64,000 nt of DNA from an uncultured Acidobacteriota bacterium (GTDB taxonomy: Bacteria; Acidobacteriota; B3-B38; Guanabaribacteriales; CAZYAF01), in NCBI GenBank assembly GCA_964645975.1, contig CAZYAF010000005.1, positions 4,332 to 68,331 on the forward strand, given 5' to 3'. This document shows positions 17,379 to 63,528 of the stretch, in pieces. Made by a program: the position numbers and the translations under genes. Each line of letters begins with the position of its first letter. Positions within the stretch are counted from its first letter, which is position 1. Below the pieces are notes generated by a model, which was given only the letters and a program-made list of their open reading frames with translations, ran no database searches and was not told the origin of the DNA.

Positions 17379-17694
17379 AATTTAACCTCCTCACAAAATA
17401 GATTCTGCACACATCATTTGATTGATGGAATTTTAGCAGAATAATAAATATAATTCAACTATAATGCAACAAAATGAAATAGATTTTCTAAAGCAAAATT
17501 GACTTTTTCCTGAAGCAATGAGAAGGAGGTTAAAAGTTTTTAAGGTGCTCTTTTTTATGAATTCAAAATATGCATGAAAAAATTAATTATTTGGGCTATT
17601 AAAACAAATTTAATAAATACCCAGAGTTTTTATTTTAATTATATTGGTTTCAAAATTGTATATCAAAAGATGCAAAAAGATATTATGATGTAGC

Positions 17695-18480
17695 TCACGC
17701 TTTATCTTCAAGTATAGCTAACTGTTCTTCAAATTTCTCAACAAAACCTGAAGTTTTTAGCAGTTCAAGACATTCATTACAAATATCAATAAGATCAGAA
17801 ATGCGCTTTTTAATTTCCTGAGATAAGGTATTTTCTTTAATTACAATATTAAGATTAGAACGGATTCTCACTCCGTAATCCAAAAAAGACCCATGCAGTG
17901 ATCTTTCAATTCCAATTCGATCTTGAGCAGCTCGCTCCAATTTGTTTTTTGCTATTGTAAGATAATCTCTTTCCAAGGAAATATATGAATCTATTAAAGT
18001 ATCATCATTTATATTTTTTAAAGGATATGTTATTTGATAAGCATTTGAAAAGTAGTTTCCTAATGCATAAATATTTGGCCCAGAATTAATAAATTGCCTA
18101 ATTAATTCAATTTTTCTTTCTGATGATCTTATATTTGAAAATGACCTCTTAAGTATATAAACACCAGCAGAAATAAGAGCAAGAGTGAATACTTGGAAAA
18201 GAAATGAGATTGTGCTTGAATCCAATGTCCCTTTGCTTTTTGATTGCAGTTGCATAAGTCTAACAATTTCTGATTGTATTAATTCTCCATTTGTTGGATT
18301 AGAATGCTCTTTTATACGATTTAATGCGTTTTTTATACTCAGTTGTATCCTCTTATTAGTAAGTTGAAGATTATAATATGCTGAAATTATAGCGCTAGAA
18401 CTTGTGATCATCATTACTATGAACATAACAATCAACAGAAAACTGCCTAGGCCCTCCATAATTTTACGATTTCTATTCAT
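17695..18480 (-). CDS. hypothetical 2-TM membrane protein, third gene of the kinase/receiver operon
   Basis: 261 aa; start ATG overlaps the receiver stop by 1 nt (TAATG); two hydrophobic helices; no recognised domain. Confidence 0.45.
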   Translation of the reverse strand: MNRNRKIMEGLGSFLLIVMFIVMMITSSSAIISAYYNLQLTNKRIQLSIKNALNRIKEHSNPTNGELIQSEIVRLMQLQSKSKGTLDSSTISFLFQVFTLALISAGVYILKRSFSNIRSSERKIELIRQFINSGPNIYALGNYFSNAYQITYPLKNINDDTLIDSYISLERDYLTIAKNKLERAAQDRIGIERSLHGSFLDYGVRIRSNLNIVIKENTLSQEIKKRISDLIDICNECLELLKTSGFVEKFEEQLAILEDKA

Positions 18481-18923
18481 TAATTCCTCCTCTCGACCAT
18501 GCGAGCGATAGCCTTAACTTTTCTCAAAACATGTCCTGTAGGTTTGGTAGAACCTCTCTTAGCAATTAAGCGGATTCCCTCTAAAAATTTGCTTTTCACG
18601 TGCTCTTTTAATTTGTCCATATACTCCGTATAGATAATAGTTTTTCGTTTCATTTCTTCATTATCTGTAAAGACATAATTGCTAAGCCAGACCCACCCTG
18701 TTAAAAGACCTCCTTTCGTATTCTTTATCTCCTCAGGTTTCAGACCATCTGGAGGCATATTTAGATCAGCAATAATGCAATCAATTTCATTTTGCTTTTC
18801 CTCCCAATAACTTTGCGCGTCATTAAAATTAAAGGCACTGAATATTGTATGCCCCTCATTTATTAAAGCATCCTCCAAATAGGATGAAACCGAACCGCGA
18901 TCTTCCAATATTAATATGTTCAT
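18480..18923 (-). CDS. stand-alone response-regulator receiver domain protein
   Basis: 147 aa; ILILED acidic pocket, IIADLNMP phospho-Asp region, conserved T and K positions; no output domain; ATGA overlap with upstream kinase. Confidence 0.65.
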   Translation of the reverse strand: MNILILEDRGSVSSYLEDALINEGHTIFSAFNFNDAQSYWEEKQNEIDCIIADLNMPPDGLKPEEIKNTKGGLLTGWVWLSNYVFTDNEEMKRKTIIYTEYMDKLKEHVKSKFLEGIRLIAKRGSTKPTGHVLRKVKAIARMVERRN

Positions 18924-21238
18924 TTCTTTCCCTCCTTTGCTGGGATAATTACTGTAAAAGTAACTTTATAGCTTGGCTTATTTATAGAATTGATAATTTC
19001 AAGATACGATGGATAATATAATGGTAAATCTTCATATTTGGGTATTGCAATTATTTTATCATATTCTGCTGATTTTTCTAATCTTTCATCTTCTTCTCTA
19101 AGTGGCTGAATTAAATGCATTTTCTTTCCGATGAGTTTTCGTTCTAAATATGGCTTAATAAGCGGAACATTAAACCCAGAAATTTGTTCACAATCATGAT
19201 CTATTGAGCCATCATGCGCATAAACTATTTGTTTTGCAATATACAAGCCAATACCTAAACCTTCTCCTTTATATATATTAGAGCCACGATTATATAATTT
19301 ATATGGATTTTCTCCTTTCTCCATTTTAATACCATAATTTGTAATTGTTAAAATATGAGGGCTGTTCGGTTTGATATCTAATTTTTTACAATCCATATAG
19401 ATTACAGTCCCCCTATGGCAATATTTTATGGCATTACCAATTATGTTATAAATCAATTGCTCAAGGAGTATTCGATCCCCATAGATAGCTGGCCGATACG
19501 GATCCTTTGAATCTACATTAGGTATTTTGATTAAAATACTTTTTTTAATTGACTCTAATCGATATATATCTCTCCATTTAAATAGCAGCTCCCCAAAAGC
19601 TAAAAAATCGGTCTTTTTAAGCTCTGGCTCTGAAATAAGCATATCTGCTTGTTTAAATAAATAATTTAGCTGTTCTAGAAACCCATCTAAATCGCGTAAT
19701 ATATCATTAGCTTTCTTTTCTTTCAGGTTTTTTAATCTCTCGAAATCAGAAAGATAGCTTTCTCGAAGCGAATCAAGACCGGACGTTAATTGTCCAGTTT
19801 CATGTCCAAAAATCCTCAGCGTGTTTTCCAAATAATCTCTGGTAGTTGCAACCAAAATGCCCGAAAACGTAGATGCTATAATTGATATAAATGATCGCAT
19901 CGAGCTTTCCAGGGCTCTACCGCTTTCTGCATCAATTGTAGAAGTATTCCAAATTTCATCTTCATATCCGGCCCAGGTTACAATCATACTATAGGGCGAG
20001 AATGCTACTGGAGATGTTCGGATGAAATTATTGGTTTTATCCAAATAAAAAGGAAGACCATCGAACAGTTGAAGCATTCTGGTGCTTGTAGTTACTTCAT
20101 TTCGAGCTTTTTCCGGTATTTTTGTCAAATCAAATGTGCACTTCTTTTTCTTAGCTTTTAATGAGCTTGGTAACTCACCAGCCTCTGCTACTATATCCAA
20201 TTTTGAAGGATATTCCTTTGTATAATGATTAACTCCGAAAAGGAATATATGACTAAACGAGAAATCGCGGCAAATGTCTTTCAGGATTTTTTCTACAAGC
20301 CGCCATAAAATAATAATCCCTTCATCTCCCAGAAGAGTTTTTTCAGGTAAACCATCATAAAAAGCTCGGTTGTAATTTTTTGTTCTTTCTACAACATATC
20401 GTTCTCTTTGCCTTGTCTTTTCCCTGGAAAGAGTTGCTTCCAATTTCCCTATTTCTTTAGCTGATTTATTTACTAATTTTTCATAAGCTTCCTTTGTATA
20501 GATATTCTTTATATTCTGAACATATCTATTATGCAGAGTAAGAATTTCTCGGCGACATGATTCAGGGGTAGTTTTTTTATTCTTTTTACAATATTCATCA
20601 AAGCAATGTGGATGGTTAACAAAAAACTCTTCATGCTTTCTATTAATAAAATCTAGTTTTCTTTTAAGAATTATTTCCCCCACATATATCACCGCAACAA
20701 TTCTTTCCTCGAAGAAAATCGGGAATGCTAAATTACTATATGCTAATAATGGGCAATCGAATTCAAGATAACGGTGTCCCATCGTCTCCTTCAGAAAAAA
20801 GCTAACCTCGGTATCATCAAGATATTCCTTTAAAGATGCATCCTTATGAGCCCGCTGCCTCAATAGTTCAATATTTAGCTCTGTTTGAGTAAGATTTCGA
20901 AATAATTTAGCTAACTTCTTCTCTACCATATCACACAACAATCCACGATTATATTTTTTAAAAGCTCTGCACGGTTGGTGGAAATCAAAATGTATGGATA
21001 TAGCTTCTGTTCTAACGACATTATCTGTTGATTCAGGCACCTCATCTTTTTCTGGTGAAAACTCCATTGCCATAATAGGGCTTTTTAATTTATTAGCTAT
21101 GGTAAATAAAATTCCTTTTAAGTATTCATTGGAAATAATTCCCACACCATAGAGTTTATTAAGCTCTGAGTCTTCAGGATATTTTTCTCCATCGTTGGTT
21201 ATATGCTCCGGTCTAAAAGGCCACCTTGCTGGTTTCAC
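18920..21238 (-). CDS. cytoplasmic sensor histidine kinase with PocR-like N-terminal sensor region
   Basis: 772 aa, no TM helix; H-box IFGHETGQLTSGL; N-box LEQLIYNIIGNAIKY; G-box GEGLGIGLYIAKQIV; N-terminal Cys-containing block FDCPLLAYSNLAFPIFFEERIVAVIYVGEI resembles PocR sensory domain. Confidence 0.65.
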   Translation of the reverse strand: MKPARWPFRPEHITNDGEKYPEDSELNKLYGVGIISNEYLKGILFTIANKLKSPIMAMEFSPEKDEVPESTDNVVRTEAISIHFDFHQPCRAFKKYNRGLLCDMVEKKLAKLFRNLTQTELNIELLRQRAHKDASLKEYLDDTEVSFFLKETMGHRYLEFDCPLLAYSNLAFPIFFEERIVAVIYVGEIILKRKLDFINRKHEEFFVNHPHCFDEYCKKNKKTTPESCRREILTLHNRYVQNIKNIYTKEAYEKLVNKSAKEIGKLEATLSREKTRQRERYVVERTKNYNRAFYDGLPEKTLLGDEGIIILWRLVEKILKDICRDFSFSHIFLFGVNHYTKEYPSKLDIVAEAGELPSSLKAKKKKCTFDLTKIPEKARNEVTTSTRMLQLFDGLPFYLDKTNNFIRTSPVAFSPYSMIVTWAGYEDEIWNTSTIDAESGRALESSMRSFISIIASTFSGILVATTRDYLENTLRIFGHETGQLTSGLDSLRESYLSDFERLKNLKEKKANDILRDLDGFLEQLNYLFKQADMLISEPELKKTDFLAFGELLFKWRDIYRLESIKKSILIKIPNVDSKDPYRPAIYGDRILLEQLIYNIIGNAIKYCHRGTVIYMDCKKLDIKPNSPHILTITNYGIKMEKGENPYKLYNRGSNIYKGEGLGIGLYIAKQIVYAHDGSIDHDCEQISGFNVPLIKPYLERKLIGKKMHLIQPLREEDERLEKSAEYDKIIAIPKYEDLPLYYPSYLEIINSINKPSYKVTFTVIIPAKEGKK

Positions 21239-21546
21239 CTTAATAATCCTCCTTCTTTTATGAGCAACACATTATATATTCATAATACGAGTTGTGCATA
21301 AATATATTGTCTTCCAGTATATTCTTTAGCTCTATTCCATGATAATACAATGGTATTATTATCAGAAATATCTATTACACCTCTATGCTCTCCTTTCTTA
21401 AATAATATTTTTAATTTCTCAAATGCATCATATTATCCATATAAGCAATAAGTGGATAAAAATTTCTCCTAAGATGCTAAATGTATAAAAGTGGCTTCAT
21501 ATATATATAACGACAAATTTTTAAAAACATTACAAAAAAATAATAA

Positions 21547-21571
21547 AAATTATTATTGTTAATAATAATTT
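21547..21571. promoter_or_regulatory. perfect 11-bp inverted repeat AAATTATTATT-GTT-AATAATAATTT in divergent intergenic region
   Basis: read directly from sequence; lies between the kinase operon (minus) and BNR-propeller gene (plus); AT-rich context lowers significance. Confidence 0.25.
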
Positions 21572-21855
21572 AATAAATGCTAATATTTGCTTTGTTTTGA
21601 TAATTTTTCTAATATTTTGAATGAAGATTCTGCTAAAGATTTCCCTTTCTGCTTCAAAAACTAATGAAATAAAGGTACAATAAAATTAAATATAGGTTGA
21701 TATAAGAATAAGCAATATCCCAGAAAGGGTTTAGCATTATCACCTTTTTTGGGAAATGTAACTTTATTATGGGGGGTGATGCTAAAATTAATACATTATT
21801 GTTTCTCTCGCCTTTTTACGATTATCGAATAACGAAATTAACCAAGGGGGATTAA

Positions 21856-24800
21856 ATGTTAACAAAAAATTTTAGATCGTTAAGCTGCTTAGCAGTTGCA
21901 TTGTTAATCTTTTTTGTGTATGTAATTTCCGGATATGCCCAGGAGATCAATCCTGATTTGTACAAGCTGCTTAAGTATCGTTTTATCGGTCCTCAGGGTA
22001 ATCGTTTTATCGCAGTGGTTGGTGTTCCCGGTGATCCCAATATTTGCTATGCCGGAGCAGCATCAGGAGGAATATTCAAGAGCACTGACGGTGGTATTCA
22101 CTGGGAGCCAATTTTTGATGACCAACCGGCTGCTTCCATTGGCTCGCTGGCTATTGCTCCTTCGGATGCCAATATCATCTGGGCAGGAACGGGAGAAATA
22201 TCCATACGCAGCAACATCTCACAGGGAAACGGAATCTACAAATCCACTGATGCGGGAAAAACCTGGAAGCATATGGGTCTTACGAAAACTGGAAGGATTG
22301 GTAGGATAGTAATTCATCCTCATAATCCGGACATCGTCCTTGCTGCATCTATGGGTCACTGCTACGGGCCGCAACAGGAGCGAGGTGTGTTTCGAACCAC
22401 TGATGGAGGCAAAACCTGGGAAAGGGTACTTTTTGCGGACGAAGATACCGGCTGCTCAGATATCATCATGGACCCCAACAATCCTCGTATTCTATTTGCC
22501 GGCATGTGGCCCAAGAGGATATGGCCCTGGCTGGAGAGAAAGAGCGGCGGACCGGGTGGCGGTATCCACATGTCGAGAGACGGTGGCACAACCTGGAAGC
22601 ACCTCACAGGGGGCCTGCCGGAACCACCGATTGGTAAGATAGCCCTTGCCATGTCAAAAAGCAACTCCAACAGGGTCTACGCTTTGATTGAGCATAAAGA
22701 TGGAGTTCTGTGGAGATCGGATGATGGCGGCGAGAGCTGGAAATTGATCAACCGTCACCATGAGCTTACTCACAGACCATCGTATTACACCCGCTGTGCT
22801 GTGGTACCTGACGATTACAATGAGATATATTTTGTAGCCACAACCTTCAGTGTGTCCTATGACGGCGGCGAGACGTTTAAAATTGTACCTCGCAATCAGT
22901 CTCCGGGAGGTGACAACCATGATATGTGGATCGATCCCCTCCTGCCCGACCGAATGATGGTGGGCAACGATAATCCCTGTGTCAGCATATCTCTTAATGG
23001 TGGCAGAACATGGGATAGAGTCCGACTTCCAACTGCTCAGATGTATCATGTACATGTAGACAATAAAATCCCATATTTTGTCTATGGTAATCGTCAGGAC
23101 GGACCCTCCACCAGAGGACCCAGCAATAGCCTTACTGGAAGACATATTCCATCAGGATTGTGGCATTCAGTGGGCGGCTGCGAATGCGGCTTTGCTATAC
23201 CAGATCCGGTGGATAATAACATCGTCTGGTCAGGCTGCTACGAAGGGATACTTGATCGCTTTGATCTAATTACGGGGCATAGTAGATCAGTGAGCGTATG
23301 GCCTGATTCATGTATCGGCACCGAGGCAGCTCCATTGAAATATCGCTTTCAGTGGACTTTCCCCATTGTAATCTCACCCCATGATAATAATAAAGTATTT
23401 GTTGGCAGTCAATATGTCCATCAGACAACCGATGGCGGGCACAGCTGGAAAATTATCAGCCCCGATCTTTCTACCAACAACAAAAAATATCAACAGCCCT
23501 TTGGAGGTATCACTCGCGATGATGAAAGCACCTATTGCTGTTGTATTTTTGCTCTGGCTGAATCGCCCGTGGAAGAGGGACTAATCTGGGCAGGTACCAA
23601 TGACGGGCAGGTACAGGTGACAAGAGATGGAGGAGAACACTGGACCAATGTCACAAAAAATATACCTGATTTTCCGCCCATGGGCACGGTCAGCAACATA
23701 GAGCCATCTCGTTATAATGCTGGGACCTGTTATATCTCAGTGGACTTTCACAATGCCAACATTCGTGATCCCTACGCTTATAAAACGACCGACTATGGTA
23801 ATACATGGGAATTGATAACCAAAGATATTCCCAAAGGTGAATTAAGCTATGTTCACTGTATCAGGGAAGATGCGAAGAGGAAAGGACTCCTTTATCTGGG
23901 AACGGAAAATGCTGTCTATATCTCCTTTGATGACGGCGATCATTGGATGGCTTTACAAAATAACCTTCCCCATGCGCCGGTGCATTGGCTTGTTGTGCAG
24001 GAGCATTTCAATGATTTGGTAATTGGTACCTATGGCCGCGGTTTCTGGATCATGGACGATATTACTCCATTTCAGGGGCTCACATCAGCAGTACTCAAGT
24101 CAGACGTTCATCTCTTCAGTATTCGCCCTGCCTATCGTTTTCAAATGGTTTCAAACCCAATGGGCGAAGAAGATGACTTAAACCTTGGTGAGAACCCACC
24201 TTATGGAGCGTCAATCAATTACTATCTAAAGTCTGCTCCCCAGGGTGATGTCAAAATTTCTATTCTGAATGAGAACGGACAAAATATTAGGACACTTGAT
24301 GGAACAAAGAAAGCGGGCATCAACAGAGTATGGTGGGATTTACAATATGAAACCTTGGATGTGGCAAAGATAAGAACCAGCCCCATCGGAGAGCCGTGGG
24401 TAAAAGTAGGAGCAAAAGGATATCGAACCTTAGTTGGTGTTGGCGGTCCTCCCAGGGTTCTTGTTGCCCCCGGTGTCTATGCGGTAAAGCTTACAGTTAA
24501 TGGGAAAGAATTCACCCAGCAGCTCACCGTGGAAAAAGACCCAAATTCAGCTGGAAGTAAGGAAGATATTCAAAAACAAGTTAAAATGCTATTGGAAATC
24601 CGAGATGATTTTAATAAGCTGGTTAAGATGATTAATCAAGTGGAATGGGTCAGAAAACAGCTTTATGGTTTAATGGAGATTTTAAAAGATGATAAAAGAG
24701 GAGAAGAGATAATAAAAACGGGTAAAGAGCTGGATAAAAAATTTATAGACCTGGAGGAGAACTTTTTTCAGATGAGGCTCACTGATTCCGATAACGATAT

Positions 24801-25029
24801 CCTGCGCTGGCCCTGCAAACTGCATTACAAACTATCCTTTCTTGCTCAACGAGTGGCTCAAGCTGATTTTCCACCGACCACTCAGCAGATTGAAGTACAC
24901 AAAATGTTCAAAGAACAGTTAAGAAATCATCAAAGTCGTTTAAAAGAATTGATTGATAAAGACCTTGGTGCTTTTAACAATATGCTCAAAGAAAAAAATA
25001 TATCGAACATTATTATTCAAACACCTTGA
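21856..25029 (+). CDS. secreted BNR/Asp-box repeat beta-propeller protein (sortilin/Vps10-like), paralog 1
   Basis: 1057 aa; signal peptide; at least 10 Asp-box motifs (STDGGIHW, STDAGKTW, TTDGGKTW, SRDGGTTW, SDDGGESW, TTDGGHSW, TRDGGEHW and others). Confidence 0.7.
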   Translation: MLTKNFRSLSCLAVALLIFFVYVISGYAQEINPDLYKLLKYRFIGPQGNRFIAVVGVPGDPNICYAGAASGGIFKSTDGGIHWEPIFDDQPAASIGSLAIAPSDANIIWAGTGEISIRSNISQGNGIYKSTDAGKTWKHMGLTKTGRIGRIVIHPHNPDIVLAASMGHCYGPQQERGVFRTTDGGKTWERVLFADEDTGCSDIIMDPNNPRILFAGMWPKRIWPWLERKSGGPGGGIHMSRDGGTTWKHLTGGLPEPPIGKIALAMSKSNSNRVYALIEHKDGVLWRSDDGGESWKLINRHHELTHRPSYYTRCAVVPDDYNEIYFVATTFSVSYDGGETFKIVPRNQSPGGDNHDMWIDPLLPDRMMVGNDNPCVSISLNGGRTWDRVRLPTAQMYHVHVDNKIPYFVYGNRQDGPSTRGPSNSLTGRHIPSGLWHSVGGCECGFAIPDPVDNNIVWSGCYEGILDRFDLITGHSRSVSVWPDSCIGTEAAPLKYRFQWTFPIVISPHDNNKVFVGSQYVHQTTDGGHSWKIISPDLSTNNKKYQQPFGGITRDDESTYCCCIFALAESPVEEGLIWAGTNDGQVQVTRDGGEHWTNVTKNIPDFPPMGTVSNIEPSRYNAGTCYISVDFHNANIRDPYAYKTTDYGNTWELITKDIPKGELSYVHCIREDAKRKGLLYLGTENAVYISFDDGDHWMALQNNLPHAPVHWLVVQEHFNDLVIGTYGRGFWIMDDITPFQGLTSAVLKSDVHLFSIRPAYRFQMVSNPMGEEDDLNLGENPPYGASINYYLKSAPQGDVKISILNENGQNIRTLDGTKKAGINRVWWDLQYETLDVAKIRTSPIGEPWVKVGAKGYRTLVGVGGPPRVLVAPGVYAVKLTVNGKEFTQQLTVEKDPNSAGSKEDIQKQVKMLLEIRDDFNKLVKMINQVEWVRKQLYGLMEILKDDKRGEEIIKTGKELDKKFIDLEENFFQMRLTDSDNDILRWPCKLHYKLSFLAQRVAQADFPPTTQQIEVHKMFKEQLRNHQSRLKELIDKDLGAFNNMLKEKNISNIIIQTP

Positions 25030-25309: not shown

Positions 25310-28300
25310 ATGTATTCAAATAACAAATCGTTAACTCCCATCATATTGATTACTGCAATGACCTTCTTTATTGTTTTCGTAATCCCTTTTCACTGCAATG
25401 CCCAGGAGATTAATCCTGAATGGTTTAATCAGCTCAAATATCGTTTCATTGGCCCTCAGGGAAATCGTGTTATTGCGGTGGTTGGTGTTCCTGGAGACCC
25501 AGATGTTTATTACATTGGAGCAGCTTCGGGCGGTATATTTAAAAGCACTGATGGCGGAACTCATTGGAAATCCATTTTTGATGAGCAGCCTGTTTCTTCT
25601 GTTGGTTCTCTGGCAATTGCTCCCTCCGATCCCAATATCATCTGGGCAGGTACTGGTGAGACATTTATTCGCAGCAATATTTCTATCGGAAATGGCATAT
25701 ACAAATCCACTGATAGCGGAAAAACCTGGAAACTTATGGGCTTGGAAAAAACAGGGAGAATAGGCAGGATTATTATAGATCCCCATGACCCAAATATCGT
25801 ATTTGCTGCGGCGATGGGTCATTGCTACGGACCGCAAAAAGAGAGGGGAGTGTACCGCACTATTGATGGTGGCAAGACCTGGGAAAACGTCCTCTTTGTG
25901 GACGAAAACACTGGTTGTTCGGATATAGTTATGGATCCCAATAATCGACGGATTCTTTTTGCTGGCATGTGGCAATTGCAAATAAAGACCTGGGGAAGAG
26001 TGAGTGGCGGACCGGGCAGTGGACTTTATATGTCACGAGATGGTGGTGCTACCTGGAAAAAGCTCAACGATAACGGATTGCCGAAATCACCGATAGGAAA
26101 AATTGCATTGGCCATGTCGCCTGATAATTCCGAACGAATCTATGCTTTAATCGAAAGCGATGAGGGAGTACTCTGGAGGTCAGATGACGGAGGTGACAAC
26201 TGGAAAATGATCAACCATGATCATATGTTGACCCAGCGCCCTCATTATTATTCACGCTGTGCAGTGGCTCCGGATGACTACAATGAAATCTATTTTTGTG
26301 CTGTTCAACTCAGCATCTCTCTCGATGGCGGATTAACATTTAAAGGAGTACGATTGGTGGGTGGTGATAATCATGATATGTGGATCGATCCCCTTAATCC
26401 AGCCCGAATGGTTGTGGGCAACGATCAGGTTGTTGCCATCTCCGTTAATCGTGGTAAGTCATGGTTAGGAGTACCTCTTCCCATTTCTCAAATGTATCAT
26501 GTGGCCGTTGATAATCAAATACCTTATTATGTGTATGGAAACAGACAGGATGGCCCTTCTACCAGGGGGCCAAGCAACAGCTTAACCTATGGAGGGATTG
26601 CTTCTGGAATGTGGCATTCGGTGGGTGGCTGCGAGTGCGGATTTGCAATTCCTGACCCAGTGGATAATAATATCGTCTGGTCTGGTTGTTATGGAGGGTC
26701 GCTGGACCGTTTTGACCTACGAACAGGACATAGTCATAGAGTAAGTGCCTGGCCTGATAATCCTATGGGATGGCCGGCTGCTGATTTAAAATATCGCTTT
26801 CAGTGGACCTTCCCCATAGCAATATCACCCCATGATCATGACAAGGTATATATAGGCAGCCAATATGTACACCAGACAACCGATGGTGGCCATAGCTGGA
26901 AAATTATAAGCCCGGACCTTTCCACAAATGATAAAAGCAAACAACAAAGCTCAGGAGATATTACGCCAGATAACGCCAGCGTTGAATACTGCTGTCTAAT
27001 ATTTGCCCTGGTAGAATCTCCTGTCGAAGAAGGAGTTATATGGGCTGGTACCAATGATGGACTTGTTTGGGTTACTCGCAATGGCGGAGAAAATTGGACA
27101 AATGTCACTAAAAACATACCAAAACTTCCGCCCTGGGGGACAGTGAGCAATATAGAGCCATCGAGATATAATGCCGGTACCTGCTATATTACCATTGATT
27201 TTCATCAGGTTAACAATAGAGAGCCATATATTTATAAGACAGCTAATTACGGAAAGAGCTGGAAATTCATAAGTTCGGATATACCGAAGAGTGTATTAAG
27301 CTATGCTCACTGTATCCGCGAAGACCCGGTAAAAGAGGGATTGCTTTATCTGGGGACGGAAAATGCTCTGTATGTATCCTTTAATGATGGAGAAAATTGG
27401 CTGCCTTTACAGAGTAATTTACCGCATGCTCCCGTGCATTGGCTTGTTGTTCAGGAGCACTTCAATGATCTCGTGGTGGCCACCTACGGACGCGGTTTTT
27501 ATATACTTGATGACATAGCACCGCTTCAACAATTAAATAAAGATATTATTAATTCGGATGTTCATCTTTTTGCTCCACGGTCAGCATATCGTTTTCGATT
27601 TAAAGCAACTCCCATGAGCCAGCCAGGTGATCCATGTGCCGGAAAGAATCCTCCCTATGGTGCTTCTATGAACTACTATGTAAAATCAGAGCCGGAAGAA
27701 AAGGTAAAAATTACCATTCTAAATGAAAAAGGCGAAAAAATAAGAACTCTTGAAGGTACTAAAGAAGTGGGTATAAATCGTGTCTGGTGGGATTTACAAT
27801 ACGAGCCGATTAAAGAAGTTAAATTGAGAACAAGCCCGATTGGCTCACCTCATGTGAAAGTAGGAGAAAAAGGATGGAGACCTTTAGCCACATGGGGCGG
27901 AAAAATTAGCATTTTAGCTGCTCCTGGAACATATACAGTAAAGCTTGCCATAGGTGAAAAGGAATACAGCCAAAAGCTTACAGTTAAAAGGGATCCTAAT
28001 TCAACGGGAACCGAGGAAGACATTGAAGCTCAGACTGAGCTGTTGTTAGAAATTCGCAAGCATATTAACAATGTGGTAGAAATGATTAACCAAATTGAAT
28101 TAATCAGAAAACAGATTTATGATCTAAACGAACTACTGAAAGGGGAAGAAAATTCGGAAACACTCATTAAAGCGGGTAAAGCACTGGATAAGAAGTTTAT
28201 AGCTATAGAGGAAAATCTCATTCAAATGAAACTTACAGGAGCATGGCAGGATGCCTTGAGATGGCCCATTAAGCTCTATGCTAAGTTGAATAGTCTTGCT

Positions 28301-28486
28301 GGTGGTATAAGTAGTTCTGACTTTCCTCCAACTACACAGCAGATTGAAGTATATGAAGTGTTCAAAAGGAAGTTAGCAGAATATAAAAACAGCTACAAAG
28401 AATTACTTGATAAAGATTTTTCTAATTTTAATAATCTTCTAAGAGAAAAAAAATTACCGAATATTATTGCTGTTAAAAACCCTTAA
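25310..28486 (+). CDS. secreted BNR/Asp-box repeat beta-propeller protein (sortilin/Vps10-like), paralog 2
   Basis: 1058 aa; GAGGAGG RBS; roughly 75-80% identical to paralog 1 over the N-terminal region; same Asp-box series. Confidence 0.7.
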   Translation: MYSNNKSLTPIILITAMTFFIVFVIPFHCNAQEINPEWFNQLKYRFIGPQGNRVIAVVGVPGDPDVYYIGAASGGIFKSTDGGTHWKSIFDEQPVSSVGSLAIAPSDPNIIWAGTGETFIRSNISIGNGIYKSTDSGKTWKLMGLEKTGRIGRIIIDPHDPNIVFAAAMGHCYGPQKERGVYRTIDGGKTWENVLFVDENTGCSDIVMDPNNRRILFAGMWQLQIKTWGRVSGGPGSGLYMSRDGGATWKKLNDNGLPKSPIGKIALAMSPDNSERIYALIESDEGVLWRSDDGGDNWKMINHDHMLTQRPHYYSRCAVAPDDYNEIYFCAVQLSISLDGGLTFKGVRLVGGDNHDMWIDPLNPARMVVGNDQVVAISVNRGKSWLGVPLPISQMYHVAVDNQIPYYVYGNRQDGPSTRGPSNSLTYGGIASGMWHSVGGCECGFAIPDPVDNNIVWSGCYGGSLDRFDLRTGHSHRVSAWPDNPMGWPAADLKYRFQWTFPIAISPHDHDKVYIGSQYVHQTTDGGHSWKIISPDLSTNDKSKQQSSGDITPDNASVEYCCLIFALVESPVEEGVIWAGTNDGLVWVTRNGGENWTNVTKNIPKLPPWGTVSNIEPSRYNAGTCYITIDFHQVNNREPYIYKTANYGKSWKFISSDIPKSVLSYAHCIREDPVKEGLLYLGTENALYVSFNDGENWLPLQSNLPHAPVHWLVVQEHFNDLVVATYGRGFYILDDIAPLQQLNKDIINSDVHLFAPRSAYRFRFKATPMSQPGDPCAGKNPPYGASMNYYVKSEPEEKVKITILNEKGEKIRTLEGTKEVGINRVWWDLQYEPIKEVKLRTSPIGSPHVKVGEKGWRPLATWGGKISILAAPGTYTVKLAIGEKEYSQKLTVKRDPNSTGTEEDIEAQTELLLEIRKHINNVVEMINQIELIRKQIYDLNELLKGEENSETLIKAGKALDKKFIAIEENLIQMKLTGAWQDALRWPIKLYAKLNSLAGGISSSDFPPTTQQIEVYEVFKRKLAEYKNSYKELLDKDFSNFNNLLREKKLPNIIAVKNP

Positions 28487-35269: not shown

Positions 35270-35830
35270 CTATTTATCTATTGTTATTACGTATCCTAGT
35301 TTTTCTAAAATTTCAATTGCTCTTTCTAAGGAACTTTGGTCAATTTTCCAGGCAAAAGATTTTGCTTTTTCCCTGATTTCTTCAGGAGTTATCGGTTTTC
35401 CTTCTTTATCAATGAAATAGTAAGCTTTTGCTGCTACAGATAAATCCATATAATCAATATTTCCTAACTGTTTCAATTCTGAGAAAAAATTTTTTATTCC
35501 ATTCCATTCATCTTTATATTTTTCTGCAATCCTTTTAGCTATCTTCTCTCCTGCTGGTGTTAATTCACAATCAAATCTTTTTCTTTCAAAACCATGGCTA
35601 TTGAAAATTCCGAGGTCTTCCTCTTTTTCATTGATTATTCCTATAGCGATTAAGTTTGATAATTCAATATTTATATCTGGCGAATAGGGACCGTAATAAT
35701 GTGGAATAAATCTCAAATCTAGACCTATATTTTTGTTAAGGAAATACATACATTTTTGCAGATATGTCTTCCCTTTGATATTGTTGTCATTTGCTAATAA
35801 TGCTAATAATATTAATTCATTAGCTTTCAT
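35270..35830 (-). CDS. Panacea (DUF4065/SocA)-like domain protein, translationally coupled to upstream HD-domain gene
   Basis: start set to ATG 35830 (MKANELILL) with AAAAAGGAG RBS; 11-nt overlap with HD gene stop; block TYLQKCMYFL...HYYGPYSPDI resembles Panacea domain core. Confidence 0.4.
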   Translation of the reverse strand: MKANELILLALLANDNNIKGKTYLQKCMYFLNKNIGLDLRFIPHYYGPYSPDINIELSNLIAIGIINEKEEDLGIFNSHGFERKRFDCELTPAGEKIAKRIAEKYKDEWNGIKNFFSELKQLGNIDYMDLSVAAKAYYFIDKEGKPITPEEIREKAKSFAWKIDQSSLERAIEILEKLGYVITIDK

Positions 35831-37154
35831 TAGCGACTCCTTTTTTATTTTTAAAATAATCACTTATTATATTATATATGATTTTATCATGTTTTTTATA
35901 CATTTTTTTCTTATCAACATTATCTTTATATTCTAAAGGAGCATAGCACTCTATAAATCTTTCTGACTTTTCTAAAATCTCATATAATTTAGATTCGTAT
36001 TTAATTTCTACTGGTTTGTCTGCTTTAACTACAAATAAATCAAGACCTTTATTTTTCTCGAAAATTCCCATAGAAATAATCTTTAAAATAACATCATTTT
36101 TATTTTCACTAATATTTCCAGCTATTTTATCTTCTAATTCTGCCTTTTCTTTTGTATCCATATTTTCTATTTGTAATCTTATATCTTCTTCGAAATTATT
36201 TATTTTTTGTGAAAAAACTCTTTTTAGCAATTTTCTATTGTAGAGATTGGAAAAGATTCTTCCGGCGTTAGTATTTTGATAATTTTCAAGTAATCTTATT
36301 GTTAATTTTTCGTCATTCCAATTTAAATATTCCTTCAAATATTCTGGTGAATCTTTGTAAATATAAATTTCTTTTAAAAAATCAATATTATCTACTTCAA
36401 CACCTAATTCAATTGCACGAACTATCATTGAATCAGTTATCAGTCTTACCTTATGCATATATACTTGAGAATCTATATAATATTTTGCTAAGAGAAATTG
36501 TTCAAAAGCTCTGATCCCATCTTCATGTATCATTAAAGAACGATCATATTTATCAATTGGTTCAGCTTTTATACTCTTGATAAGCTGATAATAATCATAA
36601 ATACCATATTTAACTCCGCAATGATAACTATCTCTTAGCAAGTAATCTATCTTATCTACATCTAAAGGTCCTGATATAATTTCTCGCAAATAACTTTCCT
36701 CATACCCTTCTTTTATTAAAGAAGAAATTGCTCTACATCTATTTTTTCCCAATATTCCGCACAATTCTTCATTTTGCTCTATTATTTTGCAAGTTATGGT
36801 TTCATGAAAATTGATTTTTCCGTGAATTCCTATATTTTCAGAAAGATTTTTCATAACCTCTTCTGATACATGAGAAAAAGGTCCATGACCTATATCATGC
36901 AATAATGCTGCAAATCGTAAGATTTCTTTTTTATCTTGGTCAATTTTTAGCTGTTCTGCAATTAATCCAGCTAAGTGCATAACCCCTAATGAATGCTCAA
37001 ATCTTGTATGATTTGCTCCGGGATAGACTAAATTTGCTAATGCTAACTGCTTGATTCTTTTTAATCTTTGAAATACTTCGGTGTCTATTATTTTTTGCTC
37101 AGTTTCATTAGGATGAATAAATCCATATATTGGATCACGAATATCAAATCTCAT
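35820..37154 (-). CDS. HD-domain phosphohydrolase, dGTPase/SAMHD1-like dNTP triphosphohydrolase family
   Basis: 444 aa; HTRFEHSLGV, LLHDIGHGPFSH and DVDKIDYLLRD motifs characteristic of dNTPase-type HD proteins. Confidence 0.7.
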   Translation of the reverse strand: MRFDIRDPIYGFIHPNETEQKIIDTEVFQRLKRIKQLALANLVYPGANHTRFEHSLGVMHLAGLIAEQLKIDQDKKEILRFAALLHDIGHGPFSHVSEEVMKNLSENIGIHGKINFHETITCKIIEQNEELCGILGKNRCRAISSLIKEGYEESYLREIISGPLDVDKIDYLLRDSYHCGVKYGIYDYYQLIKSIKAEPIDKYDRSLMIHEDGIRAFEQFLLAKYYIDSQVYMHKVRLITDSMIVRAIELGVEVDNIDFLKEIYIYKDSPEYLKEYLNWNDEKLTIRLLENYQNTNAGRIFSNLYNRKLLKRVFSQKINNFEEDIRLQIENMDTKEKAELEDKIAGNISENKNDVILKIISMGIFEKNKGLDLFVVKADKPVEIKYESKLYEILEKSERFIECYAPLEYKDNVDKKKMYKKHDKIIYNIISDYFKNKKGVANES

Positions 37155-59580: not shown

Positions 59581-62500
59581 TCAATTAATTTCTATAAGCT
59601 GATTTAGTGCATCATTTATTTCTTTAGCATTAAATTTAGCTGATACAATATATTTTGTTAATTCATCTTTTTTAATAGAATCAATAAGATTTTCAAGAAA
59701 TTCAGAAATGGTTTTATAGTATTTCTCATTCTTTAATTGAGAAAATTCAGCGATAAGATAATTTTTTACTTCAATAACAGCATCACCAAGATTTTCCTCT
59801 TGCTTCCTAAATTTAATCCTATATCGATTATATAACTCAATTTCAAATTGATTTTTGGATGAGATTAATTGTTGAATTTTATGGTAATGACCAACTATTT
59901 TTTCCAAAGCTATAAGCAAAGCTTGGATTTTAAGGTTAATTTCATTTTTTGGATAAGGTTCAAATTGAATTTGTGGAAGATAGCTCCAAATTTCTTTTGG
60001 TGGTTCTCTTGGCACTAACCATTCCCAAGTACTTAGGTTATTAGGATCAAATTGGGAAATATTATTAGAACTTATTACGTAAGCACCTGGAATAAACCTT
60101 TTATCATTGAAAATAGGAATAATACAGAAAAATCCTGCTATATCTTTGACTTTATGAAGTTCTTTTATAACTTTTAATATAGATTCTATTAATAGAGAGG
60201 GATTATCTACAGAAAAAGCAAAAGGAAGATAAGTTATAGGATATTCAATATGTTCACCAGATGGAAGTATTATTTTCATACCTTCTACTTCAAGAGTAGA
60301 AAGTGCTTTGGATAGGAGATTAAGCTTTTCCTGACGTTTTCTCTGCCTTATAGTTTTAATATACAAATTAATATTTTGCAGAGGTTTTTCAGGAGGATTA
60401 AGTATCCATACTTCTAATAAATCCGCTAAACACTTATAAGCTTTTAATTCTAAGGAATCTAATTCGCATGAATTGAAATAGTCTGGTGCAATATTGAAAA
60501 TATATTTAAAAACAAGATGCATTTTTGGAAGCTGTTTTAAAGAATCAAAAAAGTTATGTACCGCTAATCTGCCTGTTTTAATTTCTTTCTTTCTTAAATA
60601 TTCTATTAATTGTATAAAAAAATTTTTGAAACTTAAAGAGCACTTATCAGCTGCATTTTCCTTTAGAATATCTTTTAAAGGTTGTTTAATTTCTTTCCCC
60701 ATTCTTTTAAAGTTTTCAATAGAAATAGATGGAGCAAATTTTTGCGACAGTTCTAACTCCTCTATAAGTCTACCATCATCGAATAAAGATTTAATATCAT
60801 ATTTTTTATTAGTTAAGATACAATTTAAAAATTTTGAAAAATTCTGTACAAAGAGCAATGATTTTTTTCGAAGAACGTACCAATGTTCTTCTAATTTATA
60901 AAAAGTATCAGTAAAATATGCTCTCTCTATAATATTACGCCATACTATATTCTTTTCAACATCAAATTCTAAAGGTAGATTTTTTTGGGGAATATTTTTA
61001 TATGTCTCATCTATAGACGGCTTTAAGCCTAAAGGCAGAAGCCATAAGCCTTGTGATTTATAATTTCTACAGAAGGGGATAGCAGCTCGTAATTTCTGAA
61101 GTTTTGATACCGCTTGATCATTAAAGCTTATCTTATTATCTGTTTCTGGTATAAACTCCATATATAACTCATTATTTTTAATTTCTAATGTAACACAGTC
61201 TGTATGTAATTTTAAATATCCTATAAGGGTATCAGTATTTTTTAAAAACCAATTTTTATATGATCTTTCATCATATCTATAAAGACCTTGAGTAAATTTG
61301 CAAAGAGTGTCTATATTAACTTCAAAAAACCTATTATATAAAAATATATTATTTTTAACTTTTTTCCAACTAGACAATTCAATATTGCATAAATAACACC
61401 AATCAAGAATTTGTCCTATTTTAGCTAAATTATTTCGGATTATATCAATATCCATGTATGCATTTATTTTGCTTAAAAAATTACTGCAGAATTCTATTCC
61501 TCTTGGAATATTAGTAAATCTTGTTTTTATTTCTTTTAACTTTCTAAAATTTTCAAAAAGATCTCCTTCCATTTCAGCTATAATATCTATCATATCTATT
61601 TTTGCTAATGGTATAAAAGCAGTGCTTAGCCAAAATGGACCGACTGATCCAACTAACTTGTATGCTTCATCAAATAGTCCACGATTAGCTTCAAAGAATT
61701 TTCTTTCACCTGCTTCAAAAATACCATCGAGGAAAGCTAAAATTGTATCTATTTTTGCATCTTTTGCCTTCTCAATTAGTCCATTCATAAAAAGTTCTGT
61801 ATCGAGTTCTTTTTTGGATATAGCATTTAATACAAAATTACTCATATTTTCTGATGGAACAGCATCTAAGATTGAAAGTGCTGTCCTTGCAGGATTAAGA
61901 TACTGCTCATGAAGGATCTTAGAAAGGTGATCAGATCGTACCCAATGAAGCTCAATAAGCAGTTCGTCTTCTATGCGCAGATATTCTTCGGATAAAGATT
62001 GCAGTACTTGTTGTGGATCATGTCTTAGTTGTATCTTATCAAGGAGTTTATTAACCAAAATAGGTGATCCCAATTCATGAGCCAAAGATACTCTGCGTAA
62101 TATTTCTATTTTAGCTGGATCTTCATTATGAGCTGTGATCTGTTTTACTTGGTCTCGAAGTCGTTCTTCGAGCATTTTTCCATGTGTGATAAAATAAACA
62201 TATTCCATCAGCAGAGGAGGCTCTCCAATTTTCTCGAATGCCCATTCTGCTGAATCAACAGAGTCGTGAATTCGATTTTGGATTTGAAAAGATTTAAATA
62301 TATCCTTTGCTTCATTGAGATCAAGTGCTGGTTCAAGTATTTCATAATTTGTTAAGCTTAGACGAGCAGTTCTATACCAATCTTCTTCTCTGATTGAGAC
62401 TAAAACATAGAAACCAAGAGAAGCACATTCTTGTGCTATATTTGGCCAGAGTCGAGTCTGCCAGCTGGCATTGTCTATAAGTAATAAAATTGGTATTCCC

Positions 62501-63528
62501 AGTCTTGCCTTTAATCTTAGGTATCTGCGTATAATCTCAACCTGTTCTTCTGATTTTGCTATCCTTAAAATATGTGTGTATTCCGAGTCCCAATTTTCAT
62601 ATGCATATCTGTAAAGTAATGTAGATTTTCCTTGTCCGCTTGAAGATTTTAGAATACAAACTTTGGAAATTTTTAATGCTTTATCAATCCTTTTAAGCCA
62701 ACTTGGGCGTTTGACATCAACATTAGAAACTATATGACCTGGTCTAGTCCCTTTGCCTTCGAAAAAGTCTACAATCTTTTCATCTTCTTGCCATATAATT
62801 CTATCAATTAATCCCTTTCCAGAAGCTTGATATTCACTCTCTTGAGCTAAATATTCACCTATTGTATCCCTAAGTTTTTCAAGTTCAAGGCGAGTAATTT
62901 CTTTTCGTTCCTTTGCCCAAGATATAAACTCAGCAGTGAAAGCTTTTATATATATGTCAACAGCATCGCTTCCTAAATTAAATTTTTCTGAAATAACCTT
63001 ACTAAGTTTTTTCCACAATTGATCTTCAGGAATTGATTCAATTTCTAGACGCTGAAGCAAATTATGGGCTTCATATTCATTTGAACCTTTCTGATTGCAT
63101 AAATTAATAAACTTATTCTTAATACGATTTTTTTCCTCATAGGAAAGCAATTTAAGTTTTGCTAGTTTAGCAATATCCTTCTTTAAAGAAAAGTTTGTTA
63201 TAAGTTTAAAATGAGCTTTAGGATTTATTTGTAATACTTCTAAGAACTTATTTATTGGATCTTTTAGTTTACTCCATGGCCATGGATTAATAGAAGTTTT
63301 AACTTGGATGTATATATCATTTATTGAATGTAAAACTAAAAGATCAACATCTTCAATCCCTTCAAGTCTTATAGAATGATATTTACAATCATTTTTTAAA
63401 AGATCAAAAGCACATAGTATAGAGTATAATAGTTGAAATTCAATACCACGAATGTTTTTGGCTCCACCGCCTCTTTGTTCAATAAGTTTAGTAAGATTAG
63501 TTTTTATACTTTTATTATTTGATTTCAT
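59581..63528 (-). CDS. large single-polypeptide putative defense protein: N-terminal PD-(D/E)xK nuclease (DUF4297/Mrr-like) + STAND-type P-loop NTPase + long alpha-helical C-terminal region (Avs-like architecture)
   Basis: 1315 aa; N-terminal [17 protein letters not shown]...[10 protein letters not shown]...IYIQVKT (D/E...QxK pattern); Walker A SSGQGKST; Walker [11 protein letters not shown]; sensor-like VLVSIR; [14 protein letters not shown] helical-domain start; very AT-rich. Confidence 0.55.

What the first reader, a model, noticed from the sequence alone, without database searches (positions are those of the whole stretch)
17695..21238. Tightly coupled three-gene module: cytoplasmic PocR-like sensor kinase, receiver-only regulator, 2-TM membrane protein
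The three ORFs overlap by 4 nt (ATGA) and 1 nt (TAATG), implying an operon. The kinase has no TM segment; its N-terminal region contains Cys-containing blocks resembling a PocR-type small-molecule sensor domain, and it ends in a ~90-aa extension after the HATPase domain. The regulator is a bare receiver domain with no DNA-binding output, so signal output probably goes through protein-protein interaction, possibly with the downstream 2-TM protein. The module is AT-rich like the other accessory islands. Function is unknown.
Basis: partly seen in the sequence, partly recalled or inferred. Interest (0 to 1): 0.5.

Follow-up and report, generated by a model that had tools for sequence, protein, structure and literature searches.

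The report
Mobile kinase–receiver–membrane protein signalling cassette
This is a real, self-contained three-gene signalling unit (a soluble cysteine-rich sensor kinase, a receiver-only partner and a small membrane protein) that always travels as a set, is present in some strains and missing in close relatives, and belongs to an uncharacterised family whose output is probably at the membrane rather than on DNA.

Summary
Three minus-strand genes lie at 21238-18920 (kinase), 18923-18480 (receiver) and 18480-17695 (2-TM protein). They overlap by 4 nt and 1 nt.

The kinase has no TM segment. Its N-terminal domain is PocR-type, with three near-invariant cysteines. It also has a second α/β sensor domain and an intact H-box and ATP-binding motifs. 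The "C-terminal extension" is really a ~65-aa insertion inside the last β-hairpin of the ATPase domain.

The receiver keeps E7/D8, D53, T98 and K122, but only its N-terminal half resembles canonical receivers. The third protein (N-in, two TM helices, cytoplasmic four-helix bundle) matches no Pfam, PDB or viral family.

Kinase → receiver(s) → membrane protein recurs in every locus with room, across at least five phyla. No fourth gene recurs. The kinase's sensor domain defines a family of about 290 clusters at 50% identity.

A close relative (flanks 92-94% identical) lacks a 4.18-kb block holding the cassette. Another carries a much older allele at the same site.

Best reading: a mobile, non-transcriptional two-component module acting on its own membrane partner. 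The direction of signalling and the physiological role are inferred. I found no support for an anti-phage role. This is a new variant of a known kind, of moderate interest.

The parts
17474..21652 (.). 4,179-bp block (three genes plus their own 414-bp upstream and 221-bp downstream non-coding DNA). It is present in the window and replaced by an unrelated 293 bp in a close relative.
   Evidence: blastn of the window against L037: flanks 92-94% identical, homology breaks at 17473 and resumes at 21653. L037 gene order is Der-C69-RDD-BNR with no cassette. No target-site duplication or terminal repeats at the borders.
21239..21652 (-). AT-rich upstream non-coding region that travels with the cassette. 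It holds a sigma-70-like site (TGCACA-16-TATAAT, 21298-21271) and the AGGAGG ribosome-binding site at 21253-21248.
   Evidence: The promoter match is only a consensus hit; the number of such sites equals the shuffle expectation.
18920..21238 (-). Cytoplasmic sensor histidine kinase, 772 aa.
   Evidence: HATPase_c E 3e-11. No TM segment. AF2 model pLDDT 80. Foldseek hits to HK cores and PAS/GAF-HK phytochromes.
21185..21223 (-). N-terminal signature WPFRPEHITNDGE (aa 6-18).
   Evidence: W6, P7, P10, H12, I13, T14 and D16 are invariant in 9 homologues. An N-terminal WP motif (regex WP..[PA]) is present in 65 of 117 family members.
20579..21151 (-). PocR-type (PAS-like) sensor domain, aa ~30-220, with cysteines C90, C102 and C162.
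   Evidence: PF10114 hit in 24 of 29 diverse members, best E 5e-10. C90 and C102 are kept in 115/117 members and C162 in 117/117. α/β secondary structure in the model.
19964..20329 (-). Second α/β (PAS/GAF-like) domain, aa 304-425, preceded by a long helix (aa 249-296).
   Evidence: AF2 secondary structure. Foldseek alignment to PAS-GAF-PHY-HK proteins. No Pfam match.
19649..19930 (-). DHp helical hairpin, aa 437-530. Phospho-accepting His479 (codon 19804-19802) lies in FGHETGQLT.
   Evidence: H479 and E480 are kept in 117/117 members. Helices 437-496 and 507-530. HisKA Pfam is not matched.
19169..19612 (-). Catalytic ATP-binding domain, aa 543-690. N-box N598/N602, G1 position N634 (N/D/S across the family), F-box YKLYNRG, G2 box G660-x-G662-x-G664.
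18974..19168 (-). Family-specific ~65-aa helical insertion (aa 691-755). It follows the conserved motif S687-x-F-N690-V-P-L-I-x-P-Y697.
   Evidence: HATPase_c profile matched only 1-97 of 111 here, but 2-109 of 111 in sister kinase L018. The alignment places the insertion between VP and KVTFTVIIP. Motif conservation.
18941..18973 (-). Canonical last β-strand of the CA domain (YKVTFTVIIP, aa 756-766).
   Evidence: Strand 756-765 in the model. It aligns to TEFTIFLP of a canonical sister kinase.
18480..18923 (-). Receiver-only response regulator, 147 aa. Phospho-acceptor D53 (codon 18767-18765), E7/D8, T98, K122. A ~12-aa insertion follows DGL, then the conserved GLLTGW(I/V)WL.
   Evidence: Response_reg hit in 12/12 homologues, best 4e-7, but only the N-terminal half aligns.
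17695..18480 (-). 2-TM membrane protein, 261 aa. N-in, TM1 aa 14-32 (18385-18441), ~58-aa outside loop, TM2 aa 91-109 (18154-18210), cytoplasmic four-helix bundle aa ~131-258 (17707-18090).
   Evidence: Hydropathy and charge distribution. AF2 model pLDDT 81, bundle above 90. No Pfam, NCBIfam, PADLOC or PHROGs family.
18193..18234 (-). Most conserved motif of the third protein, KGTLDSSTISFLFQ (aa 83-96), at the outer end of TM2.
   Evidence: K83, D87, S88, T90, S92, F93 and L94 are invariant in the 7-sequence alignment. The pattern holds in 17 homologues.

Best explanation
This is a self-contained, horizontally exchanged three-protein phospho-signalling cassette whose output is not transcriptional.

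Proposed steps:
1. The soluble kinase senses a cytoplasmic cue through its PocR-type domain. The three near-invariant cysteines suggest a metal, an Fe-S cluster or a redox-active thiol site. A second PAS/GAF-like domain also contributes.
2. The kinase autophosphorylates on His479.
3. It passes the phosphoryl group to Asp53 of the receiver-only protein.
4. That protein has a diverged α3-α5 surface and no output domain. It acts by protein-protein contact on the only other constant component, the cytoplasmic four-helix bundle of the co-translated 2-TM protein. This changes some property of the membrane protein, such as oligomerisation, gating or partner binding.

Shown here: gene structure, domain identities, intact catalytic and phospho-acceptor residues, strict three-gene co-occurrence, accessory status and purifying selection.

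Inferred: the nature of the signal, the receiver-membrane protein contact, the direction of information flow and the physiological role.
For: - Operon with overlapping stop and start codons.
- Kinase residues H479/E480, N598/N602, K605/Y606 and G662/G664 are invariant or nearly so in 117 family members.
- Receiver residues E7 and D53 are invariant and K122 nearly so (11 of 12); position 98 is T or S in all 12 homologues.
- No DNA-binding or enzymatic domain in the receiver.
- PocR assignment. Cysteines C90, C102 and C162 kept in 115-117 of 117 members.
- Every homologue of the third protein found by profile search lies just downstream of this kinase and receiver.
- HMM annotation of 36 loci gives HK → RR (one or two copies) → TM wherever the contig allows. 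All-against-all clustering of neighbours finds no fourth recurrent gene.
- In the sister subgroup the same sensor region is joined to a different kinase core, a different receiver and different small TM proteins. The membrane partner therefore changes together with the transmitter/receiver side rather than the sensor side.
- The RR-stop/TM-start overlap is preserved even next to decayed RR duplicates.
- The cassette is an indel between strains, and its alleles are older than the host divergence.
- dN/dS of 0.12-0.41 shows all three genes are functional.
Against: - No direct evidence of a receiver-membrane protein contact.
- The mirror-tree analysis gave no RR-TM-specific signal (partial r 0.07, against 0.23 for the kinase core). 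TM distances were saturated.
- The most conserved part of the third protein faces the outside of the membrane. That would fit a sensing role as well as an effector role.
- The fold of the third protein is a generic helical bundle with no informative neighbour.
- HisKA Pfam is not matched by the DHp region.
Confidence: 0.5

Rival explanations
1. The 2-TM protein is an input component, not an output. It acts as a membrane-anchored co-sensor or scaffold that perceives an envelope or extracytoplasmic cue through its outside loop and TM2 motif. It then controls the soluble kinase through its cytoplasmic bundle. This would resemble accessory membrane proteins of other two-component systems. The receiver would act as a phosphate sink, a feedback regulator of the kinase (DivK-like), or on a target encoded elsewhere.
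For: The invariant residues of the third protein sit at the outer end of TM2. The kinase itself lacks membrane contact. The mirror-tree partial correlation is slightly higher with the kinase core (0.23) than with the receiver (0.07). The kinase carries a conserved family-specific insertion in the CA domain that could be a docking site. Extra receiver copies occur in several loci, as expected for sinks or buffers.
Against: The kinase already has two sensor domains of its own, one with a conserved Cys triad. A cassette that moves between phyla with a receiver lacking any output needs its target on board. In the sister subgroup the TM partner changes while the sensor region stays. The mirror-tree signal is weak and saturated.
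Confidence: 0.25
2. The cassette is an anti-phage or abortive-infection system built like Detocs. The kinase senses infection, and the phosphorylated receiver triggers the 2-TM protein to disrupt the membrane.
For: - Three-gene two-component architecture with a stand-alone receiver, as in Detocs, where some effectors are transmembrane (bioRxiv 10.1101/2023.01.24.525353).
- Patchy distribution across phyla.
- Presence/absence between close strains, and highly divergent alleles at one site (dS 0.67-1.45 against 0.13-0.28 in flanks).
- The third protein evolves fastest (48% aa identity, dN/dS 0.41).
- IS200-like or other transposases lie next to a few loci.
Against: - No PADLOC model matches any of the three proteins. 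The only hit is a generic HATPase match at E 0.005.
- The third protein has no receiver domain, unlike DtcC, and the kinase has PocR rather than TPR.
- Among 97 neighbouring proteins from 16 loci the only recurrent defence-type hit is two cytosine methylases. The rest are housekeeping genes.
- No relative in IMG/VR viral contigs.
- The third protein has no similarity to viral or known pore-forming structures.
Confidence: 0.12
3. The module is a His-Asp-His phosphorelay. The receiver-only protein (Spo0F-like) passes phosphate to a histidine on the four-helix bundle of the third protein, which would act as a membrane-anchored HPt/Spo0B-like transferase.
For: Receiver-only protein followed by a four-helix-bundle protein. 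The window protein has a His (H195) on a bundle helix.
Against: That His is not conserved. It is replaced by Y, F, N, I, C or R in many homologues, and no other His is conserved in the bundle. No terminal response regulator with an output domain is present in the cassette.
Confidence: 0.03

Closest known systems
Classical two-component systems with a soluble PAS-type sensor kinase and a single-domain (CheY/DivK/Spo0F/CpdR-like) response regulator
   Same: DHp-CA transmitter with H-box His and N, G1, F and G2 boxes. Receiver with acidic pocket, phospho-acceptor Asp, Thr/Ser and Lys. Cognate pair encoded in one operon. Output by protein-protein contact, as for CheY, DivK and CpdR.
   Different: - The DHp is not recognised by HisKA Pfam models.
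- The CA domain carries a conserved ~65-aa insertion.
- The receiver's C-terminal half is not alignable to canonical receivers and has a post-Asp insertion.
- The system always includes a dedicated 2-TM protein of a family with no known relatives.
- No curated NCBIfam or Pfam family covers any of the three as a whole.
PocR-domain sensors (Pfam PF10114; Anantharaman and Aravind 2005, cited in PMC5847659)
   Same: The N-terminal domain of the kinase family matches PF10114 (24 of 29 members, best E 5e-10). It is a cytoplasmic PAS-like fold joined to a histidine kinase, one of the known PocR contexts.
   Different: The window protein itself scores below the Pfam threshold (12.5 bits against 23.9). 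The family adds an N-terminal WPFRPxHITNDGE segment. Whether the three conserved cysteines are general to PocR domains was not tested. The ligand (PocR domains are predicted to sense small hydrocarbon derivatives) is unknown here.
NreB-type cytoplasmic oxygen sensor kinases (PAS domain with a Cys-ligated Fe-S cluster). This comparison comes from my own knowledge and was not tested.
   Same: Soluble kinase whose PAS-like sensor carries conserved cysteines, found in organisms from largely anoxic habitats.
   Different: No sequence relationship was shown. There are three rather than four conserved Cys. NreB signals to a DNA-binding regulator (NreC). No cofactor evidence here.
Detocs defensive two-component system (DtcA/DtcB/DtcC; bioRxiv 10.1101/2023.01.24.525353)
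   Same: Three-gene operon with a soluble kinase and a stand-alone receiver. It has a non-transcriptional output, sometimes a transmembrane effector, and an accessory distribution.
   Different: DtcA has TPR repeats, not PocR. The Detocs effector DtcC carries its own receiver domain, whereas the third protein here has none. No PADLOC hits. The genomic neighbourhoods are not defence islands.

Membership tests
Two-component histidine kinase (HisKA/HATPase_c class) | GHKL ATP-binding domain with N, G1, F and G2 boxes | tested here: met
   HATPase_c E 3.3e-11. N598, N602, G662 and G664 are invariant in 117 members. The G1 position is N, D or S.
Two-component histidine kinase (HisKA/HATPase_c class) | DHp helical hairpin with a conserved phospho-accepting His | tested here: met
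   Helices 437-496 and 507-530 in the model. H479-E480 kept in 117/117 members. However, the HisKA Pfam model is not matched.
Two-component histidine kinase (HisKA/HATPase_c class) | Autophosphorylation and phosphotransfer activity | not testable with these tools
   Needs biochemistry.
PocR sensory domain (PF10114) | Significant match to the PF10114 profile | tested here: inconclusive
   The window protein scores E 0.12 and 12.5 bits, below the 23.9-bit cut-off. Family level: 8 of 9 close and 24 of 29 diverse members hit, best E 5e-10. Membership therefore holds transitively for the family, not for this sequence alone.
PocR sensory domain (PF10114) | PAS-like α/β fold | tested here: met
   AF2 model with pLDDT about 85-93 over aa 90-260. 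It shows a β-sheet (strands 147-189) packed with helices 88-140. There is no solved relative by sequence.
Response regulator receiver domain (PF00072) | Acidic pocket, phospho-acceptor Asp, conserved Thr/Ser and Lys | tested here: met
   E7 and D53 are invariant and K122 nearly so (11 of 12, one R). Position 98 is T or S in all 12 homologues. Position 8 is D in 10 of 12 and N in 2.
Response regulator receiver domain (PF00072) | Profile match above the Pfam gathering score over the full (βα)5 domain | tested here: not met
   24.1 bits against a 30.2-bit cut-off. Only profile positions 1-53 align. PDB receivers also align only to residues 1-60. 12 of 12 homologues hit at E up to 1, best 4e-7. 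This is a divergent receiver.
Detocs (DtcA-DtcB-DtcC) | Effector protein DtcC carries an N-terminal receiver domain | tested here: not met
   The third protein is all-helical with two TM segments and no receiver.
Detocs (DtcA-DtcB-DtcC) | Sequence match to Detocs or other defence-system profiles | tested here: not met
   PADLOC gave no hit other than a generic HATPase match to PDC-M43B at E 0.005. I did not verify that this PADLOC release contains Detocs models.
Detocs (DtcA-DtcB-DtcC) | Protection against phage | not testable with these tools
   Needs experiment. Context analysis shows no defence-island signature.
HPt / Spo0B-type phosphotransferase (third protein) | Conserved solvent-exposed His on a four-helix bundle | tested here: not met
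   No His is conserved in the bundle across 17 homologues.

The most novel reading that the evidence does not exclude
The cassette would be a new class of mobile 'split-effector' two-component system. In it a phosphorylated receiver-only protein directly switches a dedicated membrane protein, for example to open a pore or depolarise the cell. It would be used as a stress, suicide or anti-phage module, and it would be triggered by an Fe-S or thiol-based PocR sensor that reads the cell's redox or metal state.
Probability: 0.12. Interest if true: 0.7.

Novelty: new variant of a known kind. Interest (0 to 1): 0.42.

Why it matters
Most two-component systems are understood as transcriptional switches. 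Well-characterised cases where a receiver-only regulator has a dedicated, co-inherited membrane partner are few.

This family is sizeable: about 290 clusters at 50% identity for the sensor domain. It is spread over at least five phyla of mostly uncultured bacteria and moves as a unit. Working out its signal and output would therefore annotate hundreds of genes at once.

The invariant Cys triad in a PocR-type domain gives a concrete, testable hypothesis for what this poorly understood sensor domain binds. The strain-level presence/absence and the old alleles at one site suggest the cassette is under frequency-dependent or niche-specific selection.

It would not overturn any principle.

Tried and rejected
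- **Kinase structure search.** It returned only HK cores and phytochromes. The N-terminal profile has no PDB relative.
- **Family libraries.** PADLOC, PHROGs and NCBIfam gave nothing family-specific.
- **Other scans.** IMG/VR had no relatives. Rfam and tRNA scans of the window found nothing.
- **Mobile-element hallmarks.** No target-site duplication or terminal inverted repeats at the indel borders. No integrase or transposase in the window block.
- **HPt-like phosphorelay.** Rejected, because the His is not conserved.
- **ZAS-type anti-sigma motif (CxxC at aa 233-236).** Rejected, because it is not conserved in homologues.
- **Mirror-tree co-evolution test.** Inconclusive.
- **Metagenome pattern scan with the diverse alignment A6.** It failed as too degenerate, so A5 was used instead.
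- **Defence-island hypothesis.** Neighbour annotation did not support it.
- **Word-index protein search.** It suggested only about 10 kinase homologues. The exhaustive HMM search corrected this to about 290 clusters.


Full report
**1. Observation**

The region holds three minus-strand ORFs: 21238-18920 (772 aa), 18923-18480 (147 aa) and 18480-17695 (261 aa).
- The first starts at GTG 21238, with AGGAGG 9 nt upstream.
- Its stop overlaps the next ATG by 4 nt (ATGA).
- The second gene's TAA overlaps the third ATG by 1 nt, with GGAGGA upstream.
- GC is 0.33, against about 0.38 for the window.
- The only ORF of 60 aa or more on the other strand is a 60-aa antisense ORF.

**2. The kinase**

Pfam sees only HATPase_c (aa 587-685, E 3e-11) and a sub-threshold PocR match (aa 170-217, E 0.12). 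There is no hydrophobic segment long enough to span a membrane.

An AlphaFold2 model built on nine homologues (pLDDT 80) shows these parts:
- an α/β domain at about aa 37-190;
- a long helix at 249-296;
- a second α/β domain at 304-425;
- a DHp hairpin at 437-530;
- the CA domain from 543.

Foldseek returns HK cores and PAS-GAF-PHY kinases.

PocR status is settled at family level. Eight of 9 close members hit PF10114 at E up to 1 and 24 of 29 diverse members at E up to 0.1, with a best E of 5e-10.

An alignment of 117 full-length relatives shows the following conservation:
- C90 and C102 in 115/117, and C162 in 117/117;
- D or E at position 106 in 113/117;
- H479-E480, N602, Y606, G662 and G664 in 117/117.

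The enzyme therefore looks catalytically competent, and the sensor pocket probably holds a Cys-ligated cofactor or reactive thiols.

- The HATPase_c profile stops at position 97 of 111 here, but runs to 109 of 111 in a sister kinase.
- The extreme C-terminus YKVTFTVIIP is predicted as a strand.
- That strand aligns to the canonical last strand TEFTIFLP.
- So aa 691-755 are inserted within the last β-hairpin, directly after a conserved S-x-F-N-V-P-L-I-x-P-Y motif.

**3. The receiver**

In 12 homologues E7 and D53 are invariant and K122 nearly so (11 of 12). Position 98 is always T or S. Position 8 is D in 10 and N in 2.

Only the N-terminal half (β1-β3) aligns to Pfam or PDB receivers. A ~12-residue insertion follows the DGL turn and leads into an invariant GLLTGW(I/V)WL.

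No output domain exists. This is a functional but divergent receiver whose usual output face (α4-β5-α5) has been remodelled.

**4. The third protein**

Hydropathy and charge distribution give this topology: N-in, TM1 at 14-32, a ~58-aa outside loop, TM2 at 91-109, and a 152-aa cytoplasmic tail.

The AF2 model (pLDDT 81) is all-helical, with a confident four-helix bundle at aa ~131-258.

The most conserved residues (K83, D87, S88, T90, S92, F93, L94) sit at the outer end of TM2.

No Pfam, NCBIfam, PADLOC, PHROGs, PDB or BFVD relative was found. Structural neighbours are generic bundles.

A His on the bundle and a CxxC near the C-terminus are not conserved. HPt-like and ZAS-like roles are therefore rejected.

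**5. Conservation of the module**

The word-index search found 10 kinase relatives. All loci recovered for them carry kinase, a ~146-aa receiver and a ~250-340-aa membrane protein in the same order, with unrelated flanks. In one of them (L007) the kinase and membrane-protein genes are split into fragments.

A profile of the third protein found only 7 proteins. Each lies downstream of such a kinase and receiver.

The GTDB scan found the kinase in four MAGs: Acidobacteriaceae, Bipolaricaulota, Latescibacterota and Pirellulales. The first three carry the receiver and membrane-protein genes downstream; the Pirellulales contig ends within the kinase gene.

A metagenome scan added 20 loci. HMM annotation of all loci gives HK → RR (sometimes two copies, or a decayed second copy) → TM protein wherever the contig is long enough. 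There are two kinds of exception:
- a sister subgroup (L018, L020, L030) with the same sensor region but a canonical kinase core, a different receiver-only protein and other small TM proteins;
- L031/L032, where two smaller membrane-protein genes, neither matching the family profile, occupy the third-gene position.

All-against-all clustering of neighbouring ORFs finds only these three families recurring.

An exhaustive HMM search with the sensor region finds 292 cluster representatives at E up to 1e-3. Nearly all are 740-830 aa long. The family is real and moderately large.

**6. Accessory status**

A contig from a close relative (L037) has the same Der-C69 peptidase-RDD-BNR gene order, with flanks 92-94% identical, but lacks the cassette. 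Window 17474-21652 (4,179 bp) is replaced there by 293 unrelated bp.

No target-site duplication, terminal repeat, tRNA or recombinase marks the borders.

A second relative (L002) has the cassette at the same site, but with much greater divergence.

| Measure | Cassette genes, window vs L002 | Flanking genes |
|---|---|---|
| Nucleotide identity (blastn) | 78% | 92% |
| Amino-acid identity | HK 69%, RR 72%, TM 48% | 91-95% |
| dS | 0.67-1.45 | 0.13-0.28 |
| dN/dS | 0.12-0.41 | 0.13-0.16 |

One recombination breakpoint lies inside the 3' end of the third gene.

The alleles are thus older than the strains that carry them, and all three genes are under purifying selection.

**7. Mechanism**

Shown: a competent kinase-receiver pair and an obligate genetic link to a membrane protein.

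Inferred: the phosphorylated receiver acts on the cytoplasmic bundle of the membrane protein, so the output is at the membrane.

Three points support this direction:
- the receiver has no other output;
- a cassette that moves between phyla must carry its own target;
- in the sister subgroup the membrane partner changes together with the transmitter and receiver, while the sensor region stays.

Three points count against it:
- the conserved motif of the third protein faces outward, which would also suit a sensor;
- the mirror-tree test gave no RR-TM signal;
- no multimer modelling was possible.

I put this model at about 0.5, the co-sensor/scaffold rival at about 0.25, and a Detocs-like defence role at about 0.12. 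The defence role is a special case of the effector model.

Defence is weakened by several results:
- no PADLOC hits;
- no receiver domain in the third protein, unlike DtcC;
- housekeeping-type neighbourhoods, with only 2 cytosine methylases among 97 neighbours;
- no viral-contig relatives.

**8. Comparison and novelty**

This is a two-component system in its chemistry. Four features are not described together in any curated family I could search:
- the PocR(Cys3)-sensor kinase family with a CA-domain insertion;
- the divergent receiver;
- the dedicated 2-TM partner of a previously unrecognised family;
- the cassette's mobility.

Literature searches for PocR kinases and for single-domain regulators with membrane partners found nothing matching.

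I class it as a new variant of a known kind, of moderate interest.

Noticed in passing
window 59581-63528 (-): A 1315-aa protein with a nSTAND_NTPase5 domain (E 1.4e-11) lies in an AT-rich stretch (GC 0.27-0.35). It may be a STAND/Avs-like accessory or defence gene.
   Followed up: no
window 35820-37154 (-): A 444-aa HD + HD_assoc_2 protein lies in the most AT-rich stretch of the window (GC 0.28). This is another candidate accessory island.
   Followed up: no
window 21856-25029 and 25310-28486 (+): Two tandem paralogous 1057/1058-aa Sortilin-Vps10/BNR-repeat proteins, about 70% nucleotide identity to each other. GC is up to 0.51, well above the window mean.
   Followed up: partly
L001 11250-11465; L027 10094-10390: A C-terminal fragment of a second receiver copy (71 and 98 aa) lies directly upstream of the 2-TM gene and overlaps its start. 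The RR-stop/TM-start junction is thus kept even where the duplicated receiver has decayed. L007, L019 and L023 carry two full receiver copies; L036 carries a second copy cut off by the contig end.
   Followed up: partly
L010 5948-12250 (Bipolaricaulota MAG): A truncated kinase (479 aa, no PocR part) plus receiver lies directly upstream of a complete cassette. A third receiver-like gene sits on the opposite strand. An ORF I read by eye as an IS200-like transposase lies next door; Y1_Tnp matched two unmapped proteins in the 97-neighbour pool.
   Followed up: partly
L018 752-4305; L030 5370-8050; L020 2062-5477: A sister subgroup has the same PocR plus second sensor domain fused to a different transmitter core with a complete, uninterrupted HATPase_c. 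L018 and L030 have a canonical H-box, with a sub-threshold HisKA hit in L018 only. It pairs with a different receiver-only protein that, in L018 and L030, still has the post-Asp insertion with GLxTG, followed in L018 and L020 by other small TM proteins (the L030 contig ends inside the receiver gene). This is modular swapping of the transmitter, receiver and membrane part.
   Followed up: partly
window 17695-17791 versus L002: The 92% nucleotide identity of the flank runs into the last ~32 codons of the 2-TM gene, then drops to 78% or becomes undetectable. This marks a recombination breakpoint inside the gene.
   Followed up: partly
L009 7986-10348; L007 3545-5894: The kinase is split into two ORFs in the Acidobacteriaceae MAG and in one ENA contig. 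This could be a frameshift, a pseudogene or an assembly error; the cause was not resolved.
   Followed up: no
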